Shown: in pieces, positions 4,937-43,127 of the stretch
Layout: each line of letters starts with the position of its first letter
Position numbering within the stretch: position 1 is the first letter of the stretch
Virus record (IMG/VR): IMGVR_UViG_2529293240_000022
Length of the DNA stretch: 43,127 nucleotides
DNA from: a virus
Lineage: Duplodnaviria > Heunggongvirae > Uroviricota > Caudoviricetes
Strand: one strand, 5' to 3'
The notes under the pieces: generated by a model
Told to the model about the DNA's origin: nothing
Seen by the model: only the letters and a program-made list of their open reading frames with translations
Database searches by the model: none
Made by a program: the position numbers and the translations under genes

Positions 4937-5480
4937 TCATCACTGGAAAGTGGAAAAACAGCCTGAGTGGTACGTGAAAGCTGTCAGAAAAACTATCGCG
5001 GCGTTGCCGGGGGGTTACGCTGAAGCTGCTGAGTGGCTGGATGTAACAGAGAACGCTTTATTCAACCGCCTTCGTGCAGATGGCGATCAGATTTTCCCGC
5101 TGGGATGGGCAATGATTTTACAGCGTGCTGCTGGCACTCACTACATTGCGGATGCTGTCGCACAGTCTGCTGGTGGGGTGTTCGTATCGCTTCCTGAAAT
5201 TGAGGAAGTAGAGAACGCCGATATAAACCAGCGCCTGCTGGAAGTCATCGAACAGATCGGGAATTACTCAAAGCAGATTCGTTCGGCAATCGAAGATGGG
5301 GTCGTGGAGCCACACGAGCAGACAGCAATTAATGATGAGTTGTATCTGTCAATTTCGAAGCTCCAGGAGCATGCAGCACTGGTCTACAAAATCTTCTGCG
5401 CTCCAGAAAAGAGTGACGCCCGCGAGTGTGCAGCTCCGGGCGTCGTGGCGTTTTGTGTCTGTGGAGAAACTAACGCATGA
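4929..5480 (+). CDS. CII-like / YdaT-like regulatory protein (assignment uncertain), GTG start
   Basis: position directly after cro with 8-nt overlap; AGGAGG site 7 nt upstream of GTG; family call from memory only. Confidence 0.4.
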   Translation: MGNHHWKVEKQPEWYVKAVRKTIAALPGGYAEAAEWLDVTENALFNRLRADGDQIFPLGWAMILQRAAGTHYIADAVAQSAGGVFVSLPEIEEVENADINQRLLEVIEQIGNYSKQIRSAIEDGVVEPHEQTAINDELYLSISKLQEHAALVYKIFCAPEKSDARECAAPGVVAFCVCGETNA

Positions 5481-6628
5481 ACAGTTTAACGGCAAATAAC
5501 CGTTTGTCGCAACAGCTGGTGGTCAGTGTCGCTGAACACCTGTTGTTACGGCATGAATGCAGATTACCAGATCACCTGGCTGTAAGTAACCACAGAGAAC
5601 TTTACCTGACTGTGGGGGGCGAGTTGTGCAGGAACTTAACCGCTGGTTTCGTGACGGAAGAGGGCTTTATGTCCATGTTATTCGTTGGGAGCCAGAAACA
5701 CAGCGCGTTATCTATCTTCGCAAAGACTACCAGCATGAGTGCTTTAGTCCTTTGTGGAAATTCAGGCGTGATTTTGTTGAGTGTGAAGGACCACCAGCAC
5801 ATTGATTCTGCCATTCCGGGACGTTACACTGTTCAGGCACCTTATAAAGCGGGTGCCGGGATTGGCGTCCTGAAATTGATTACTGAGCATAACCGCGCTC
5901 ATGCGGTTTTTTCGTGTCATGAGCATTGCTACGCCCAAATTATGGTGGGGCGTACAGGGCCGACTTCGGTCGGGCCGGGTTCGGTAGTCTCCGGTAACGC
6001 CAACCCTGTACGTCTCACCACCTCTGTGATTGGCGTCCCATGTGGTGAGTTTTCTAAAAAACTGACTACCGGGGCTGTCACTATGACTACTCTCCCAACC
6101 CTCACTCAACCTGAAATTGCCATCGTTGATGGTCAGGCTGTTACTTCATCCCTGGCTGTTGCCAACTTCTTCTCCAAACGTCATGACGATGTACTGAAAA
6201 AGATCCGCACGCTTGAATGCTCCGCATCATTCACTGCCCGCAATTTTTCGGTGAGTGATTACACCGATTGCACAGGCCGCAAACTACCTTGCTATCAAAT
6301 CACCCGCGATGGCTTTGCGTTCCTTGCTATGGGCTTCACTGGTAAACGTGCTGCCCGGTTCAAAGAGGCATACATAAATGCCTTTAACCAGATGGAAAAA
6401 CTGCTTTCAAAGCCATCCACGCTGAGCGATGCCGCAGATAACGCCAGCGTGCTTTACTCCCACCTGTCGGTAATCCACAAGGTCTGGCTGCAGCAGCTTT
6501 ATCCCATGTTGGCAAAAGCCGAATCTCCGCTGGCTGTTAGCTTGTATGACTATATTAATGATGCTTCGGCGCTGGCCTGCCTCATAAATTTGTCGCTGAA
6601 TCCTTCAGAGGTAAGGGGGCGTAAATGA
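5477..6628 (+). CDS. Rha-family phage regulatory protein, copy 1, with unique 105-aa N-terminal extension
   Basis: Rha-type core (KRHDDVL...LPCYQITRDGFAFLAMGFTGKRA...FKEAYINAFNQME); ATGA overlap with upstream gene. Confidence 0.6.
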   Translation: MNSLTANNRLSQQLVVSVAEHLLLRHECRLPDHLAVSNHRELYLTVGGELCRNLTAGFVTEEGFMSMLFVGSQKHSALSIFAKTTSMSALVLCGNSGVILLSVKDHQHIDSAIPGRYTVQAPYKAGAGIGVLKLITEHNRAHAVFSCHEHCYAQIMVGRTGPTSVGPGSVVSGNANPVRLTTSVIGVPCGEFSKKLTTGAVTMTTLPTLTQPEIAIVDGQAVTSSLAVANFFSKRHDDVLKKIRTLECSASFTARNFSVSDYTDCTGRKLPCYQITRDGFAFLAMGFTGKRAARFKEAYINAFNQMEKLLSKPSTLSDAADNASVLYSHLSVIHKVWLQQLYPMLAKAESPLAVSLYDYINDASALACLINLSLNPSEVRGRK

Positions 6629-7527
6629 TCCGGAATATTTTCAAACTGTTTACCAATCGCCACCAGCACATTGATTCTGCCATTCCGGGACGTTACACTG
6701 TTCAGGCACCTTATAAAGCGGGTGCCGGGCGTGGAAACCCGAAATTCAATATAGAGCACAACCGCGCTCATGCGGTTTTTTCGTGTCATGAGCATCGTTA
6801 CGCCCAAATTATGGTGGGGCGTGCAGGGCCAACTTCGGTTGGGCCGGGTTCTATGTTGACCGGTATTTCCACCCCTGTACGTCTCACCACCTATATGGTC
6901 GTGGAAAGCCTTGGTGGTGAGTTCATTGAATTCAACATAGGGGCTGTCACCATGACTACTCTCCCAACCCAATCTCACCCTGAAATCACGATTATCAATG
7001 GTCGCGTTGTCACCACATCTCTTGCAGTAGCTAATTACTTTACTAAACGGCATGAGCGGGTTTTAGATAGAATTAGAAACCTCGAATGTTCCGCTGAATT
7101 TACTGAACACAATTTTGTGTTAAGTGAATACACCGACGCATCAGGCCGCAAACTCCCTTGTTACCAAATCACCCGCGACGGTTTTGCGTTTCTTGCCATG
7201 GGCTTCACGGGTAAACGTGCTGCCCAGTTCAAAGAGGCATACATCAATGCCTTTAACCAGATGGAGAAACAGCTTTCAAATCCCTCTGTACTGAGCGACG
7301 TTGCACATAACGCCAGCGTTCTCTATTCCTACATTTCATCAATTCATCAGGTCTGGCTGCAGCAGCTTTATCCTATGTTGGCAAAAGCCGAATCTCCGCT
7401 GGCTGTTAGCTTGTATGACTATATTAATGATGCTTCGGCACTGGCCTGCCTCATAAATTTGTCGCTGAACCCTTCAGAGGTAAGGGGGCGTAAATGATCC
7501 GGAATATTTTCAAACGGTTTACCAATC
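5792..7527 (+). repeat. Tandem direct duplication, two units of about 866 bp (5792-6657 and 6662-7527), mosaic identity
   Basis: first ~70 nt and last ~140 nt of the units are near-identical while the interior is substantially diverged, with an in-frame 3-nt indel; the 36-nt junction ATGATCCGGAATATTTTCAAAC... occurs at 6625 and 7494. Confidence 0.8.
6625..7497 (+). CDS. Rha-family phage regulatory protein, copy 2 (alternative internal start at 6952)
   Basis: paralogue of copy 1 with identical 5' and 3' ends and a diverged core; ATGA overlap. Confidence 0.65.
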   Translation: MIRNIFKLFTNRHQHIDSAIPGRYTVQAPYKAGAGRGNPKFNIEHNRAHAVFSCHEHRYAQIMVGRAGPTSVGPGSMLTGISTPVRLTTYMVVESLGGEFIEFNIGAVTMTTLPTQSHPEITIINGRVVTTSLAVANYFTKRHERVLDRIRNLECSAEFTEHNFVLSEYTDASGRKLPCYQITRDGFAFLAMGFTGKRAAQFKEAYINAFNQMEKQLSNPSVLSDVAHNASVLYSYISSIHQVWLQQLYPMLAKAESPLAVSLYDYINDASALACLINLSLNPSEVRGRK

Positions 7528-7718
7528 AGACTTTCCGTTGTCCTCGTCCGGGTCAGTGGTACACCACACCTGCAGGGCATGTTCTACGTGTTAGCCTGGT
7601 TGACCGTGAATGTCAGAAGGTGATTTGTGAACCGCTGGGCCGTAATTACCGCGTCAGTATGCCGCTTATAGCCTTTTGCTCCGGAAAAATGTTTAAGCGT
7701 CTGGGAGGTGTGGCGTGA
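7494..7718 (+). CDS. Hypothetical small protein (74 aa) starting in the repeat junction
   Basis: ORF only; first 12 codons shared with Rha copy 2; GTGA overlap with next gene. Confidence 0.35.
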   Translation: MIRNIFKRFTNQTFRCPRPGQWYTTPAGHVLRVSLVDRECQKVICEPLGRNYRVSMPLIAFCSGKMFKRLGGVA

Positions 7719-14014: not shown

Positions 14015-14090
14015 GGCCCTTTAGCTCAGTGGTGAGAGCGAGCGACTCATAATCGCCAGGTCGCTGGTTCAAATCCAGCAAGGGCCACCA
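14015..14090 (+). tRNA. ileZ: tRNA with CAU anticodon, tRNA-Ile2 (lysidine)-like, ileZ-like
   Basis: cloverleaf folded by hand: 7-bp acceptor stem GGCCCTT/AAGGGCC, anticodon loop CTCATAA, T-loop TTCAAAT, 3' CCA; closely resembles E. coli ileX. Confidence 0.8.
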
Positions 14091-14099
14091 TATCACATA

Positions 14100-14176
14100 C
14101 CGCCATTAGCTCATCGGGATAGAGCGCCAGCCTTCGAAGCTGGTTGCGCGGGGTTCGAGTCCTCGATGGCGGTCCA
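14100..14176 (+). tRNA. tRNA-Arg (anticodon UCG), argN-like
   Basis: cloverleaf folded by hand: acceptor CCGCCAT/ATGGCGG, anticodon loop CTTCGAA, T-loop TTCGAGT, 3' CCA. Confidence 0.7.
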
Positions 14177-14189
14177 TTATCTGTACCCT

Positions 14190-14266
14190 GCGTTGTTAGC
14201 TCAGCCGGACAGAGCAATTGCCTTCTAAGCAATCGGTCACTGGTTCGAATCCAGTACAACGCGCCA
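14190..14266 (+). tRNA. tRNA-Arg (anticodon UCU), argO-like
   Basis: cloverleaf folded by hand: acceptor GCGTTGT/ACAACGC, anticodon loop CTTCTAA, T-loop TTCGAAT, 3' CCA. Confidence 0.75.
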
Positions 14267-14280
14267 GACTTATTTTTCCC

Positions 14281-14305
14281 GGCTCGCTTTTGCGGGCCTT
14301 TTTTT
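14281..14305 (+). terminator. Rho-independent terminator after the tRNA cluster
   Basis: stem GGCTCGC / GCGGGCC (one G-U pair), loop TTTT, then T7. Confidence 0.5.
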
Positions 14306-14501
14306 AAATGTCTCACAATTCAGACGGTTGACAGTTGTCTGTTTTGCGGGGAGTTTGTTAAAAGAAACTGGCATGGTGAATCCCCCTGTGCGGAGGGGCA
14401 ATCAGCGAGTAGGTATATGGGATAATCGCGGATTCAGGTGCTGGTACTGAATTCACCGGGAGGCACCCGGCACCATGCAATGGCACATAGCGCCACTCTC
14501 C

Positions 14502-14561
14502 AGCCCCTCTCCGGAGGGGCTTTCTTATGGACAAAAAAAGCCCGCGCTGGGAGACGCGGGC
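14502..14561. terminator. Back-to-back hairpins in the tRNA to nanS-p spacer
   Basis: plus-strand AGCCCCTC-TCCG-GAGGGGCT (14502-14521) then TTCTT; minus-strand terminator GCCCGCG...CGCGGGC (14540-14561) preceded by A7. Confidence 0.4.
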
Positions 14562-42543: not shown

Positions 42544-43127
42544 TGGCATTCAGAATGAGTGAACAACCACGGACCATAAAAATTTATAATCTGCTGGCCG
42601 GAACTAATGAATTTATTGGTGAAGGTGACGCATATATTCCGCCTCATACAGGTCTGCCTGCAAACAGTACCGATATTGCACCGTTAGATATTCCGGCAGG
42701 CTTCGTGGCTGTTTTCAACAGTGATGAGTCATCGTGGCATCTCTTTGAAGACCATCGGGGTAAAACGGTTTATGACGTGGCTTCCGGCGACGCGTTATTT
42801 ATTTCTGAACTCGGTCCGTTACCGGAAAATGTTACCTGGTTATCGCCGGAAGGGGAGTTTCAGAAGTGGAACGGCACAGCCTGGGTGAAGGATACGGAAG
42901 CAGAAAAACTGTTCCGGATCCGGGAGGCGGAAGAAACAAAAAACAACCTGATGCAGGTAGCCAGTGAGCATATTGCGCCGCTTCAGGATGCTGCAGATCT
43001 GGAAATTGCAACGGAGGAAGAAACCTCATTGCTGGAAGCCTGGAAAAAGTATCGGGTGTTGCTGAACCGTGTTGATACATCAACTGCACCTGATATTGAG
43101 TGGCCTACGAACCCTGTCAGGGAGTAA
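42543..43127 (+). CDS. tfa: Tail fibre assembly protein (Tfa)
   Basis: 194-aa translation typical of lambdoid Tfa; TAATG overlap with stf. Confidence 0.8.

What the first reader, a model, noticed from the sequence alone, without database searches (positions are those of the whole stretch)
5477..7718. Tandem, mosaic duplication of Rha-family regulator genes
Two ~866-bp units are near-identical at both ends but substantially diverged inside, including an in-frame 3-nt indel, which fits recombination or gene conversion between distinct alleles rather than a recent simple duplication. The unit junction (ATGATCCGGAATATTTTCAAAC...) recurs at the start of a third gene (7494). Copy 1 carries a unique 105-aa N-terminal extension.
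Basis: seen in the sequence. Interest (0 to 1): 0.5.

Follow-up and report, generated by a model that had tools for sequence, protein, structure and literature searches.

The report
Two orthogonal RNA-locked antirepressor cassettes
The repeat is real, but it is not simply two long Rha genes: it is two complete copies of a known phage "RNA lock" cassette (promoter, IsrK-like RNA, C4-like antisense RNA, antirepressor-type Rha gene) whose RNA recognition sequences differ, so each lock should fit only its own gene.

Summary
The tandem repeat is confirmed. There are two 869-bp units (5791-6659 and 6660-7528). They are 100% identical over the first 60 nt, 76% over the middle 630 nt and 97% over the last 179 nt.

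The gene model in the finding is wrong. Each unit is a complete IsrK/C4-type cassette of the P1/P7 immI, P4 seqA-CI-seqC and Gifsy-1 isrK-anrP kind. It holds a conserved promoter-like site, an IsrK-like sRNA with terminator, a C4-like antisense RNA and a 181-aa Rha gene (ATG 6083 and 6952).

The diverged "core" includes the two recognition elements of C4 (a', b') and both target pairs (a1/b1 in IsrK, a2/b2 at the Rha ribosome-binding site). Cognate pairing is 16/16 positions and cross pairing 8-9/16. Across 11 distinct alleles the three sites covary (94-97% paired; 12 of 16 upstream and 7 of 9 downstream pairs show compensatory changes).

The "105-aa extension" is upstream of the repeat. It overlaps a real DUF4222 gene in another frame and occurs in single-copy relatives too.

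Unit 2's core is 99.7% identical to single-copy cassettes elsewhere, so the array was built by recombination between alleles. Such arrays recur (at least 23 of 5,426 complete E. coli genomes; none of 50,697 phage records carry this window's junction type) and combine different alleles, except for one triple array that repeats a C4 type.

The single cassette is known. The heterospecific array seems undescribed.

The parts
5626..5805 (+). DUF4222 small gene (59 aa), left neighbour of the array. Its stop codon TGA lies inside the -35 hexamer of cassette 1. It is overlapped in another frame by the annotated 383-aa ORF.
   Evidence: Pfam PF13973 E = 1.1e-13; phrog_1343 E = 4e-36. Variable sites among 55 distinct relatives fall 13/3/3 on the third positions of this frame. 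It is annotated as a separate gene in E. coli S88.
5791..6659 (+). Repeat unit 1: complete cassette of specificity type 'E'.
   Evidence: Direct repeat with 869-nt offset.
6660..7528 (+). Repeat unit 2: complete cassette of specificity type 'B'.
   Evidence: Its core is 99.7% identical to single-copy cassettes L085 and L086.
5803..5831 (+). Promoter-like site of cassette 1 (TTGATT, 17 nt, TACACT), 6 nt upstream of the IsrK-like 5' end.
   Evidence: Read from the sequence. It is identical in unit 2, and the 68-nt 5' segment that contains it is 91-100% identical in 134 modules. It matches only 8 of 12 consensus positions, below the threshold of the scan, so the promoter is inferred.
6672..6700 (+). 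Promoter-like site of cassette 2 (identical sequence).
5837..5913 (+). IsrK-like sRNA 1. It carries target sites b1 (5862-5868 TTGGCGT) and a1 (5878-5886 GATTACTGA) and ends in a Rho-independent terminator (stem 5891-5908 plus U-tract).
   Evidence: Rfam RF01394, 59.3 bits against a gathering score of 50. Terminator scan. Complementarity and covariation.
6706..6782 (+). IsrK-like sRNA 2. It carries b1 (6731-6737 GTGGAAA) and a1 (6747-6755 CAATATAGA); terminator stem 6760-6777.
   Evidence: Rfam RF01394, 61.6 bits.
5937..6025 (+). C4-like antisense RNA 1 (type E). Recognition elements: a' 5981-5989 (TCGGTAGTC, hairpin loop) and b' 5997-6003 (ACGCCAA, single-stranded).
   Evidence: Rfam RF01695, 82.3 bits against 45. 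Own model R1, 107.7 bits. The fold is 100% paired in 11 distinct alleles, with 8 compensatory pairs.
6806..6894 (+). C4-like antisense RNA 2 (type B). Recognition elements: a' 6850-6858 (TCTATGTTG) and b' 6866-6872 (TTTCCAC).
   Evidence: Rfam RF01695, 82.4 bits; R1, 109.4 bits.
6030..6074 (+). Downstream target of C4-1: b2 6030-6036 (TTGGCGT) and a2 6064-6072 (GACTACCGG). a2 overlaps the GGGG Shine-Dalgarno sequence (6071-6074) of rha1.
   Evidence: 16/16 complementary positions with C4-1, 8-9/16 in the two cross-combinations with cassette 2. a'-a2 covariation is 97% paired, with 7 of 9 pairs compensatory. The bipartite motif occurs nowhere else in the window.
6901..6943 (+). Downstream target of C4-2: b2 6901-6907 (GTGGAAA) and a2 6933-6941 (CAACATAGG). 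a2 overlaps the GGGG Shine-Dalgarno sequence of rha2.
6083..6628 (+). rha1: 181-aa Rha-family (antirepressor-type) protein.
   Evidence: Pfam Phage_pRha E = 2.5e-30; phrog_821 plus anti-repressor PHROGs. Differences from rha2 fall 21/17/62 by codon position; dN/dS 0.19. In distant relatives the frame is closed upstream of this ATG.
6952..7497 (+). rha2: 181-aa Rha-family protein, 81% identical to Rha1.
6625..6659 (+). Array junction. The first 35 nt of the downstream 74-aa gene are duplicated at the end of unit 1 and joined to CCACCAGCA..., the last 15 nt of the DUF4222 gene.
   Evidence: The identical junction is found in arrays with other allele pairs (L005, L029, L115, E. coli S88 and SCU-172).
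7494..7718 (+). 74-aa gene (phrog_1153, unknown function), the normal right neighbour of the cassette. Its first 35 nt belong to unit 2.
   Evidence: phrog_1153 E = 2e-44. It has the same position in single-copy relatives.

Best explanation
The region is an array of two complete, mutually orthogonal IsrK/C4-type antisense-RNA cassettes. Each one controls its own Rha-family antirepressor-type gene. The array sits in the early right operon of a lambdoid prophage, in the order cI, cro, cII/YmfL, DUF4222, cassette E, cassette B, 74-aa gene, replication genes.

Shown from sequence and comparison:
- Each unit contains a conserved promoter-like site.
- Each contains an IsrK-like sRNA that ends in an intrinsic terminator and carries sites b1 and a1.
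- Each contains a C4-like RNA that presents a' in a hairpin loop and b' in a single-stranded stretch.
- Each contains a second pair of sites, b2 and a2. Site a2 overlaps the Shine-Dalgarno sequence of a 181-aa rha ORF.
- In each unit a'/b' are perfectly complementary to that unit's own a1/b1 and a2/b2, and poorly complementary to the other unit's sites.

Inferred by homology with P1/P7 immI, P4 immunity and the Gifsy-1 isrK locus:
- Most transcripts stop at the IsrK terminator.
- Read-through RNA is processed to C4, which pairs with b2/a2, blocks rha translation and probably favours termination or decay.
- The IsrK RNA, which carries a copy of the target, competes for C4 and so can switch rha on.
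- Rha then counteracts repression and promotes induction.

Origin: the array was assembled by recombination that joined cassettes of different specificity. Alleles have since been exchanged through the conserved ends of the cassette.

Inferred and least certain: carrying two specificities lets the prophage silence the antirepressors of two classes of incoming relatives. It also gives the phage one antirepressor that a resident of either single class cannot silence.
For: - Rfam hits above the gathering scores for isrK and C4 in both units, in the same order and spacing.
- The C4 fold is 100% paired in 11 distinct alleles, with 8 compensatory pairs.
- Intermolecular and long-range pairing: b1/a1 with b'/a' is 93.8% paired, against 31-51% when partners are slid, and 12 of 16 pairs show two-sided changes. 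a' with a2 is 97% paired and 7 of 9 pairs are compensatory. b2 is 7/7 in every allele.
- Cognate pairing is 16/16 against 8-9/16 between the window's two units. Cognate duplex energies are -29 to -33 kcal/mol; non-cognate are -17 to -24.
- The bipartite target motifs occur only in the cognate cassette in the whole 43-kb window.
- Intrinsic terminators lie at the IsrK 3' ends.
- The Rha ORFs are intact and under purifying selection (dN/dS 0.19; differences 21/17/62 by codon position). The leader shows no codon periodicity (15/18/23).
- Recombinant origin: unit 2's core is 99.7% identical to single-copy cassettes. dS is discontinuous. The ends are conserved across the allele pool.
- Recurrence: arrays E-B, E-B-(B/A), F-D, D-G and F-G share or differ in junctions. 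Junction type 1 is in 13 and a second junction type in 10 of 5,426 complete E. coli genomes.
- Mechanistic precedent: IsrK expressed in trans activates anrP translation and Gifsy-1 induction, and a processed RNA, STnc1160, lies downstream of IsrK (PMC4825925). IsrK is described as a structural homologue of P4 seqA and C4 of P4 CI RNA, with similar systems in P1, P7 and N15 (PMC3632133).
Against: - No expression data were examined. The promoter matches only 8 of 12 consensus positions and fell below the scan threshold.
- Antirepressor activity of this Rha clade is inferred from family names and from AnrP. It has not been tested, and its target repressor is unknown.
- The Rha frame stays open through the whole leader in all 9 E. 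coli-phage alleles and in 13 of the 14 closest genome relatives (12 of 13 Enterobacterales plus one contig labelled Martelella alba), with only 3-nt indels. Translation of the leader, for example from AUG 5942, may therefore be part of the mechanism in a way not captured here.
- In Gifsy-1 the experimentally supported model stresses IsrK-driven refolding of the leader, not repression by the C4-like RNA.
- An adaptive value of the array is not shown. Arrays are rare (about 0.4% of complete E. coli genomes).
- Some arrays contain apparently mismatched hybrid cassettes (third module of L057; L005).
Confidence: 0.75

Rival explanations
1. The array has no function of its own. It is a neutral, transient by-product of recombination between related, co-resident or co-infecting lambdoid phages that carry different cassette alleles. 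This concerns the meaning of the array, not its anatomy.
For: - Arrays are rare: 13 plus 10 of 5,426 complete E. coli genomes, and none of the 50,697 phage records carries the junction type tested.
- Lambdoid early regions are notoriously mosaic.
- Some arrays carry truncated or mismatched cassettes (L032 first Rha is 77 aa; L057 third module has C4 type B with an a2 site of type A).
- Purifying selection seen between Rha1 and Rha2 largely predates their joining.
Against: - The same junction is shared by arrays with five different allele combinations. At least three different junction types exist, so arrays persist long enough to exchange alleles and arise repeatedly.
- Both cassettes in the window are fully intact, with 16/16 cognate pairing.
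- Seven of the eight arrays examined combine different C4 specificities; the exception, the L057/L058 triple, has C4 type B in both its second and third modules.
Confidence: 0.4
2. The long ORFs (383 aa, 5477-6628; 290 aa, 6625-7497) are the real proteins: Rha regulators with an N-terminal 'Ash' domain. The duplication is then a duplication of protein-coding genes.
For: - The Rha frame has no stop through the leader in all alleles, and indels are multiples of 3.
- Pfam Phage_ASH (PF10554) matches aa 117-213 above its cut-off.
- PGAP and phage annotators call the 383-aa ORF.
- The start codons overlap the preceding stop codons (ATGA).
Against: - Over 5626-5802 the variation is third-position biased in the DUF4222 frame, not the long-ORF frame.
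- Leader differences between the units show no codon periodicity.
- The 'protein' sequence of the leader is not conserved between alleles, whereas RNA pairing is.
- The long ORF is broken in E. coli S88 and N53 and in Salmonella phage 118970_sal3.
- Relatives in Erwinia, Aeromonas, Vibrio, Endozoicomonas and Marinomonas have stops between C4 and the Rha ATG, plus a strong Shine-Dalgarno sequence at that ATG.
- The Ash match coincides exactly with two Rfam RNA families.
Confidence: 0.1
3. An in-situ tandem duplication was followed by divergence of the interior, with gene conversion keeping the ends alike.
For: The arrangement is perfectly head-to-tail, the unit lengths are equal and the ends are near-identical.
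Against: - Unit 2's core is 99.7% identical to single-copy cassettes in other contigs and 76% identical to unit 1.
- dS of about 1 in the core would require very long divergence in place.
- The conserved ends are conserved in the whole allele pool.
- The same junction occurs with other allele pairs.
Confidence: 0.04
4. Assembly expansion artefact.
For: Tandem repeats with near-identical ends can in principle be mis-assembled.
Against: - The two cores differ by 24%, so they are unique sequence.
- The same E-B pair is in an independent contig at 99.7-99.8% identity, and in L057/L058.
- The same junction is in 13 complete genomes.
Confidence: 0.01

Closest known systems
Gifsy-1 isrK-orf45-anrP-isrJ locus of Salmonella (Hershko-Shalev et al. 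2016, PMC4825925)
   Same: - An IsrK sRNA (Rfam RF01394) with its own terminator is followed by a structured leader or processed RNA (STnc1160, at the position of the C4-like RNA) and then an antirepressor-like gene.
- It lies in a lambdoid prophage.
- An in-frame AUG at 5942 corresponds to the first AUG of orf45 (+107).
   Different: - Here the orf45-equivalent frame has no stop and runs in frame into rha.
- No isrJ was found.
- The cassette sits between cII and the replication genes, not next to a Q-like antiterminator.
- The cassette is present twice, with different specificities.
immI region of phages P1 and P7 (c4-icd-ant; Citron & Schuster 1990, cited in PMC7313666; details from my own knowledge)
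   Same: - A C4 antisense RNA (Rfam RF01695) has two recognition elements, a' and b'.
- These are complementary to one target pair upstream and one downstream of c4 on the same transcript.
- The downstream pair occludes a ribosome-binding site and thereby controls an antirepressor.
- Specificity alleles differ by compensatory changes, the basis of P1/P7 heteroimmunity.
   Different: - The controlled gene is a Rha-family protein, not P1 Ant.
- There is no separate icd ORF.
- The upstream targets are packaged in a terminated IsrK-like sRNA.
- The host element is a lambdoid prophage with a LexA-like cI.
- Two heterospecific cassettes sit in one genome; in P1 and P7 there is one per genome.
Phage P4 immunity (seqA - CI RNA - seqC; Sabbattini et al. 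1995, Forti et al. 2002, cited in PMC3632133)
   Same: - Same architecture of target, antisense RNA, target on one transcript.
- IsrK is a structural homologue of seqA and C4 of CI (PMC3632133).
- Pfam 'Ash', which I recall (unverified) takes its name from the P4 ash locus in this region, matches the translated leader here.
   Different: - In P4 the RNA is the primary immunity factor and acts through transcription termination upstream of the replication genes.
- Here a protein cI repressor is present, and the RNA controls an accessory antirepressor-type gene.
APSE phages of Hamiltonella (c4 + isrK next to a BRO-N gene; PMC7313666)
   Same: The c4 and isrK Rfam families co-occur immediately upstream of an antirepressor-type (BRO-N/Rha-like) gene.
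   Different: APSE is reported with a single copy. One predicted target there is a distant DNA polymerase gene.

Membership tests
C4 antisense RNA (Rfam RF01695; P1/P7 immI type) | Covariance-model score at or above the family's gathering score | tested here: met
   82.3 and 82.4 bits against a gathering score of 45, full-length 1-87/87, both units.
C4 antisense RNA (Rfam RF01695; P1/P7 immI type) | Long closing stem with two internal hairpins, supported by covariation | tested here: met
   27 pairs, 100% of cells paired in 11 distinct alleles, 8 pairs with two-sided changes; slid controls 33-48% paired.
C4 antisense RNA (Rfam RF01695; P1/P7 immI type) | Two recognition elements (a', b') complementary to a target pair upstream (a1, b1) and downstream (a2, b2) on the same transcript | tested here: met
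   16/16 cognate positions in both units. Covariation across alleles.
C4 antisense RNA (Rfam RF01695; P1/P7 immI type) | Downstream target overlaps the ribosome-binding site of the controlled ORF | tested here: met
   a2 (6064-6072; 6933-6941) overlaps the GGGG/GAGG sequence 8-12 nt upstream of the rha ATG.
C4 antisense RNA (Rfam RF01695; P1/P7 immI type) | Controlled operon is icd-ant: a small coupled ORF plus a P1-type Ant | tested here: not met
   There is no separate small ORF between C4 and the gene. The gene product matches Pfam Phage_pRha only; no ANT or AntA domain appears among the hits.
C4 antisense RNA (Rfam RF01695; P1/P7 immI type) | Maturation of the RNA from a longer transcript (RNase P) | not testable with these tools
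   This requires RNA end mapping.
IsrK Hfq-binding RNA (Rfam RF01394; Gifsy-1 isrK locus) | Covariance-model score at or above the gathering score | tested here: met
   59.3 and 61.6 bits against 50, full-length 1-77/77.
IsrK Hfq-binding RNA (Rfam RF01394; Gifsy-1 isrK locus) | Rho-independent terminator at the 3' end that allows partial read-through into the antirepressor gene | tested here: inconclusive
   A terminator-like hairpin plus U-tract is present at 5891-5913 and 6760-6782. Read-through cannot be tested here.
IsrK Hfq-binding RNA (Rfam RF01394; Gifsy-1 isrK locus) | Own promoter directly upstream | tested here: inconclusive
   TTGATT-17-TACACT is conserved in nearly all alleles and correctly placed. 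It matches only 8 of 12 consensus positions and was not reported by the scan.
IsrK Hfq-binding RNA (Rfam RF01394; Gifsy-1 isrK locus) | Separate upstream ORF (orf45), ending before anrP and translationally coupled to it | tested here: not met
   The frame from AUG 5942 runs without a stop into rha in all E. coli-phage alleles.
IsrK Hfq-binding RNA (Rfam RF01394; Gifsy-1 isrK locus) | isrJ sRNA downstream of the antirepressor gene | tested here: not met
   No isrJ match at the gathering threshold in the window.
Rha family (Pfam PF09669 Phage_pRha) | Score above the Pfam gathering cut-off over the whole domain | tested here: met
   105.3 and 110.2 bits against 29.9, profile positions 1-91/91.
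Rha family (Pfam PF09669 Phage_pRha) | Antirepressor activity against a phage repressor | not testable with these tools
   Only family names are available (PHROG 'anti-repressor' and 'transcriptional regulator'), plus the AnrP precedent (PMC4825925).
Ash protein family (Pfam PF10554) | Score above the cut-off | tested here: met
   44.9 and 37.7 bits against 26. The matched residues are the translation of the IsrK and C4 RNAs. They show no codon periodicity or amino-acid conservation between alleles, so I do not treat this as a protein domain.

The most novel reading that the evidence does not exclude
Lambdoid prophages stack heterospecific IsrK/C4 'RNA lock' cassettes as a combinatorial immunity and anti-immunity device. 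Each added cassette would silence the antirepressor of one more class of incoming relatives. It would also add an antirepressor that residents of other classes cannot silence. The conserved cassette ends would act as recombination linkers that let specificities be shuffled, in an arms race among co-infecting phages. A second, independent novelty would be that the leader must stay translatable in the Rha frame, so that the RNA genes double as an obligatory open reading frame.
Probability: 0.3. Interest if true: 0.65.

Novelty: new variant of a known kind. Interest (0 to 1): 0.5.

Why it matters
- It gives a natural set of at least nine orthogonal RNA-RNA specificities on one conserved scaffold (a' 9 nt, b' 7 nt). 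Three-way compensatory changes among C4, the IsrK-borne site and the site at the ribosome-binding site make this a ready-made test bed for how kissing-loop specificity evolves. It is also a source of parts for orthogonal translational control.
- Arrays of two or three cassettes in one prophage suggest that secondary immunity (control of antirepressors) can be multiplexed. That bears on prophage cross-induction among the many lambdoid and Stx prophages of pathogenic E. coli.
- It exposes a systematic annotation error. The widely propagated 383-aa 'Rha family phage regulatory protein', the 'ash family protein' calls and probably Pfam PF10554 include translated non-coding RNA and hide a DUF4222 gene.

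Tried and rejected
- An exact-motif regex search for C4 missed 25 of 120 loci. I replaced it with a covariance model, R1.
- The MAFFT register of the b2 site differs between B-type and other alleles. b2 could therefore not be scored with the count of structure pairs; I scored it by best 7-mer in Python, which biases towards pairing. The a1/b1 and a2 counts do not have this problem.
- I tested whether the 59-aa DUF4222 protein and the 74-aa downstream protein are paralogues whose recombination could create arrays. BLASTP gave only E = 0.038 and 24% identity, and Pfam gave no hit for the 74-aa protein. Not supported.
- I looked for extra trans targets of either C4 in the window. None were found apart from isolated 8-mers at 17133 and 7373 on the minus strand.
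- Literature searches for tandem or multiple C4/IsrK cassettes found nothing relevant. This is weak negative evidence, because the key P1 and P4 papers are not in the searchable library.
- Two related-loci runs failed on a 1-nt frame error, and three paper look-ups failed on terms that were too short.
- I did not use protein homology searches, structure prediction or fold search. The question was settled at the RNA and DNA level.

Full report
**1. Observation**

The repeat finder and a pairwise alignment confirm a head-to-tail direct repeat with a constant offset of 869 nt. The units are 5791-6659 and 6660-7528.

Identity is sharply non-uniform:
- 100% over the first 60 nt;
- 75.7% over the next 630 nt;
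- 97.2% over the last 179 nt.

There is no net length difference. MAFFT places two offsetting 3-nt indels between the C4 RNA and the Rha start.

**2. What the unit is**

An Rfam scan of the window gives two families above their gathering scores in each unit, in the same order:
- isrK (RF01394) at 5837-5913 and 6706-6782;
- C4 antisense RNA (RF01695) at 5938-6025 and 6807-6894.

The isrK matches end in terminator-like hairpins with U-tracts.

A promoter-like TTGATT-17-TACACT lies 6 nt upstream of each isrK match. It is inside the repeat and sits in a 5' segment that is 91-100% identical in 134 modules. It is weak by consensus (8 of 12 positions) and was not called by the scan.

The Pfam Rha domain starts about 20 residues after an ATG at 6083 and 6952, which is preceded by GGGG. 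From these starts both ORFs are 181 aa.

Each 869-bp unit is therefore a whole cassette: promoter, IsrK-like sRNA with terminator, C4-like RNA, leader and rha.

**3. The diverged interior carries the specificity determinants**

The C4 loop (a') and the single-stranded stretch after the second hairpin (b') differ between the units:
- unit 1: TCGGTAGTC and ACGCCAA;
- unit 2: TCTATGTTG and TTTCCAC.

In each unit the exact complements occur twice:
- inside the IsrK-like RNA (b1, a1);
- just upstream of rha (b2, a2), where a2 overlaps the Shine-Dalgarno sequence.

Cognate pairing is 16/16 positions in both units. Cross pairing is 8-9/16. Duplex energies differ by 9-13 kcal/mol. The bipartite motifs occur nowhere else in the 43-kb window.

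**4. Comparative support**

I collected 120 IMG/VR loci with the two Rha proteins, plus annotated phage and E. coli loci. I located C4 with a covariance model built here.

At least nine specificity alleles exist on one conserved scaffold. On an alignment of 11 distinct leaders:
- the C4 fold is 100% paired, with 8 compensatory pairs;
- b1/a1 with b'/a' is 93.8% paired, with 12 of 16 pairs changed on both sides, against 31-51% paired when partners are slid;
- a' with a2 is 97% paired, with 7 of 9 compensatory pairs;
- b2 matches b' 7/7 in every allele (the register was chosen by best match).

This three-way covariation is what the P1/P7 immI model predicts. It is strong evidence that the RNA contacts are functional.

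**5. The long ORFs**

The upstream part is very unlikely to be protein in that frame, for these reasons:
- 5626-5805 encodes a DUF4222 protein in another frame (Pfam E = 1e-13; phrog_1343). Among 55 distinct relatives the variable sites fall 13/3/3 on its third positions.
- Differences between the two leaders show no codon periodicity (15/18/23). Those in the Rha ORFs do (21/17/62).
- The leader 'protein' differs radically between alleles while RNA pairing is preserved.
- The long ORF is broken in E. coli S88 and N53 and in Salmonella phage 118970_sal3.
- In Erwinia, Aeromonas, Vibrio, Endozoicomonas and Marinomonas relatives, stops lie between C4 and the Rha ATG.

The Pfam 'Ash' hit (aa 117-213) coincides with the two RNA genes.

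One thing remains unexplained. The Rha frame is nevertheless open through the leader, with only 3-nt indels, in:
- all nine E. coli-phage alleles;
- 13 of the 14 closest genome relatives (12 of 13 Enterobacterales, plus one contig labelled Martelella alba).

An in-frame AUG at 5942 sits where Gifsy-1 orf45 starts (PMC4825925). Some translation of the leader may therefore matter.

**6. Origin**

- Unit 2's core is 99.7% identical to single-copy cassettes (L085, L086).
- Unit 1's core was found only in arrays: 99.7% in an independent contig, and about 90% over 561 nt, with an identical type-E C4, in L057/L058.
- dS is 0.98 in Rha codons 1-135 and 0.09 in the last 46 codons; dN/dS is 0.19 overall.
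- The conserved ends are conserved across the allele pool. The 5' end is 91-100% identical in 134 modules, and the 3' end is at least 96% identical in about two thirds.

The pattern is therefore mosaic recombination between alleles, not in-situ divergence. No gene conversion within the array is required.

**7. Arrays recur**

Arrays seen:
- E-B: the window, and contig 2526164649_000023;
- E-B-(B/A hybrid): L057 and L058, three cassettes;
- F-D: E. coli S88 and N53;
- D-G: SCU-172, L115-L118 and L120;
- F-G: L029;
- F(truncated)-A: L032;
- an unidentified first cassette followed by A: L005

.

Junctions:
- The window's junction (…ACCAATCG|CCACCAGCA…) is shared by arrays with different allele pairs.
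- L057 and L032 have other junctions.
- So arrays arose at least three times and have exchanged alleles.

Frequency and spread:
- Junction type 1 is in 13, and the L057 type in 10, of 5,426 complete E. coli genomes.
- Junction type 1 is in none of 50,697 phage records.
- C4 directly upstream of an Rha gene extends to many Gammaproteobacteria. Symbiopectobacterium has two C4 copies 953 nt apart.

**8. Mechanism**

The mechanism is inferred from three sources:
- P1/P7 immI (Citron & Schuster 1990, as cited in PMC7313666, and my own knowledge);
- P4 immunity (cited in PMC3632133);
- the Gifsy-1 isrK locus (PMC4825925).

The proposed steps:
- C4, processed from read-through transcripts, pairs with b2/a2 and masks the rha ribosome-binding site.
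- IsrK, which carries the same sites, competes for C4 or refolds the leader, and so turns rha on.
- Rha then promotes derepression.

With two orthogonal cassettes the two rha genes are controlled independently. A lysogen would silence incoming antirepressors of both classes, and the phage would always carry one antirepressor that a single-class resident cannot silence.

The anatomy and the pairing are shown here. Everything else is inferred: the regulatory outcome, the Rha activity and any advantage of the array.

**9. Comparison with known systems, and novelty**

The single cassette is a known kind, the IsrK-C4 immunity-type system. It is recognised in P1, P7, N15, P4, lambdoid Salmonella prophages and APSE (PMC3632133, PMC4825925, PMC7313666).

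It differs from P1 immI in its cargo (Rha, not Ant; no icd). It differs from Gifsy-1 in lacking a stop for the orf45 equivalent and in lacking isrJ.

I found no description of heterospecific tandem arrays. The classic literature is not fully searchable here, so this negative is weak. I rate the finding a new variant of a known kind, of moderate interest.

Noticed in passing
window 5825-6115 and 6694-6984 (aa 117-213 of ORF 5477-6628): Pfam PF10554 'Ash protein family' matches above its cut-off exactly where Rfam places the isrK and C4 RNAs. PGAP annotates separate 'ash family protein' genes at such leaders in some E. coli genomes. The family looks like a translated non-coding RNA leader, not a protein domain.
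   Followed up: partly
window 5477-6082 and homologous leaders in L001-L139: The Rha reading frame stays open through promoter, IsrK and C4 in all nine E. coli-phage alleles and in 13 of the 14 closest genome relatives (12 of 13 Enterobacterales plus a contig labelled Martelella alba), with only 3-nt indels. This holds although there is no codon periodicity or amino-acid conservation. It is closed in more distant relatives. An in-frame AUG at 5942 corresponds to the start of Gifsy-1 orf45.
   Followed up: partly
window 5626-5805: A DUF4222 gene is hidden under the annotated 383-aa 'Rha family phage regulatory protein' in most public records. RefSeq calls it separately only where the long ORF is broken (E. 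coli S88).
   Followed up: yes
L057 and L058, 1147-3546: Three cassettes in tandem (C4 types E, B, B). The third is a hybrid: its C4 and IsrK sites are type B, but its a2 site and Rha are type A. Only the shared b element can pair, so its rha may be poorly repressed. L005 is the converse hybrid (IsrK sites type B; C4 and a2 type A).
   Followed up: partly
L032, 2233-3546: This array has a truncated first Rha (77 aa). Its second cassette is joined inside the 74-aa phrog_1153 gene, which gives a third, independent junction type.
   Followed up: partly
L186 (Erwinia tracheiphila) 2503-2947; L171 (Aeromonas piscicola) 160-248 and 2867-2954; L136 (Symbiopectobacterium purcellii) 1905-2946: Multiple C4-like RNAs lie close together outside E. 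coli. In Erwinia two are 357 nt apart, too close for an Rha gene between them. In Symbiopectobacterium two are 953 nt apart.
   Followed up: no
window 14015-14532: Three tRNA genes (Met-CAT, Arg-TCG, Arg-TCT) are followed by the sRNA STnc100 (Rfam, 139 bits). From memory, this cluster is typical of the late-regulatory region of Stx-type lambdoid prophages.
   Followed up: no
window 42886-43084: Full-length Rfam IS009 match (225 bits) near the right end of the window.
   Followed up: no
window 5481-5625: The 145 nt between the cII/YmfL stop and the DUF4222 start show no codon periodicity in any frame (variable sites 8/5/10). Their function is unknown.
   Followed up: partly
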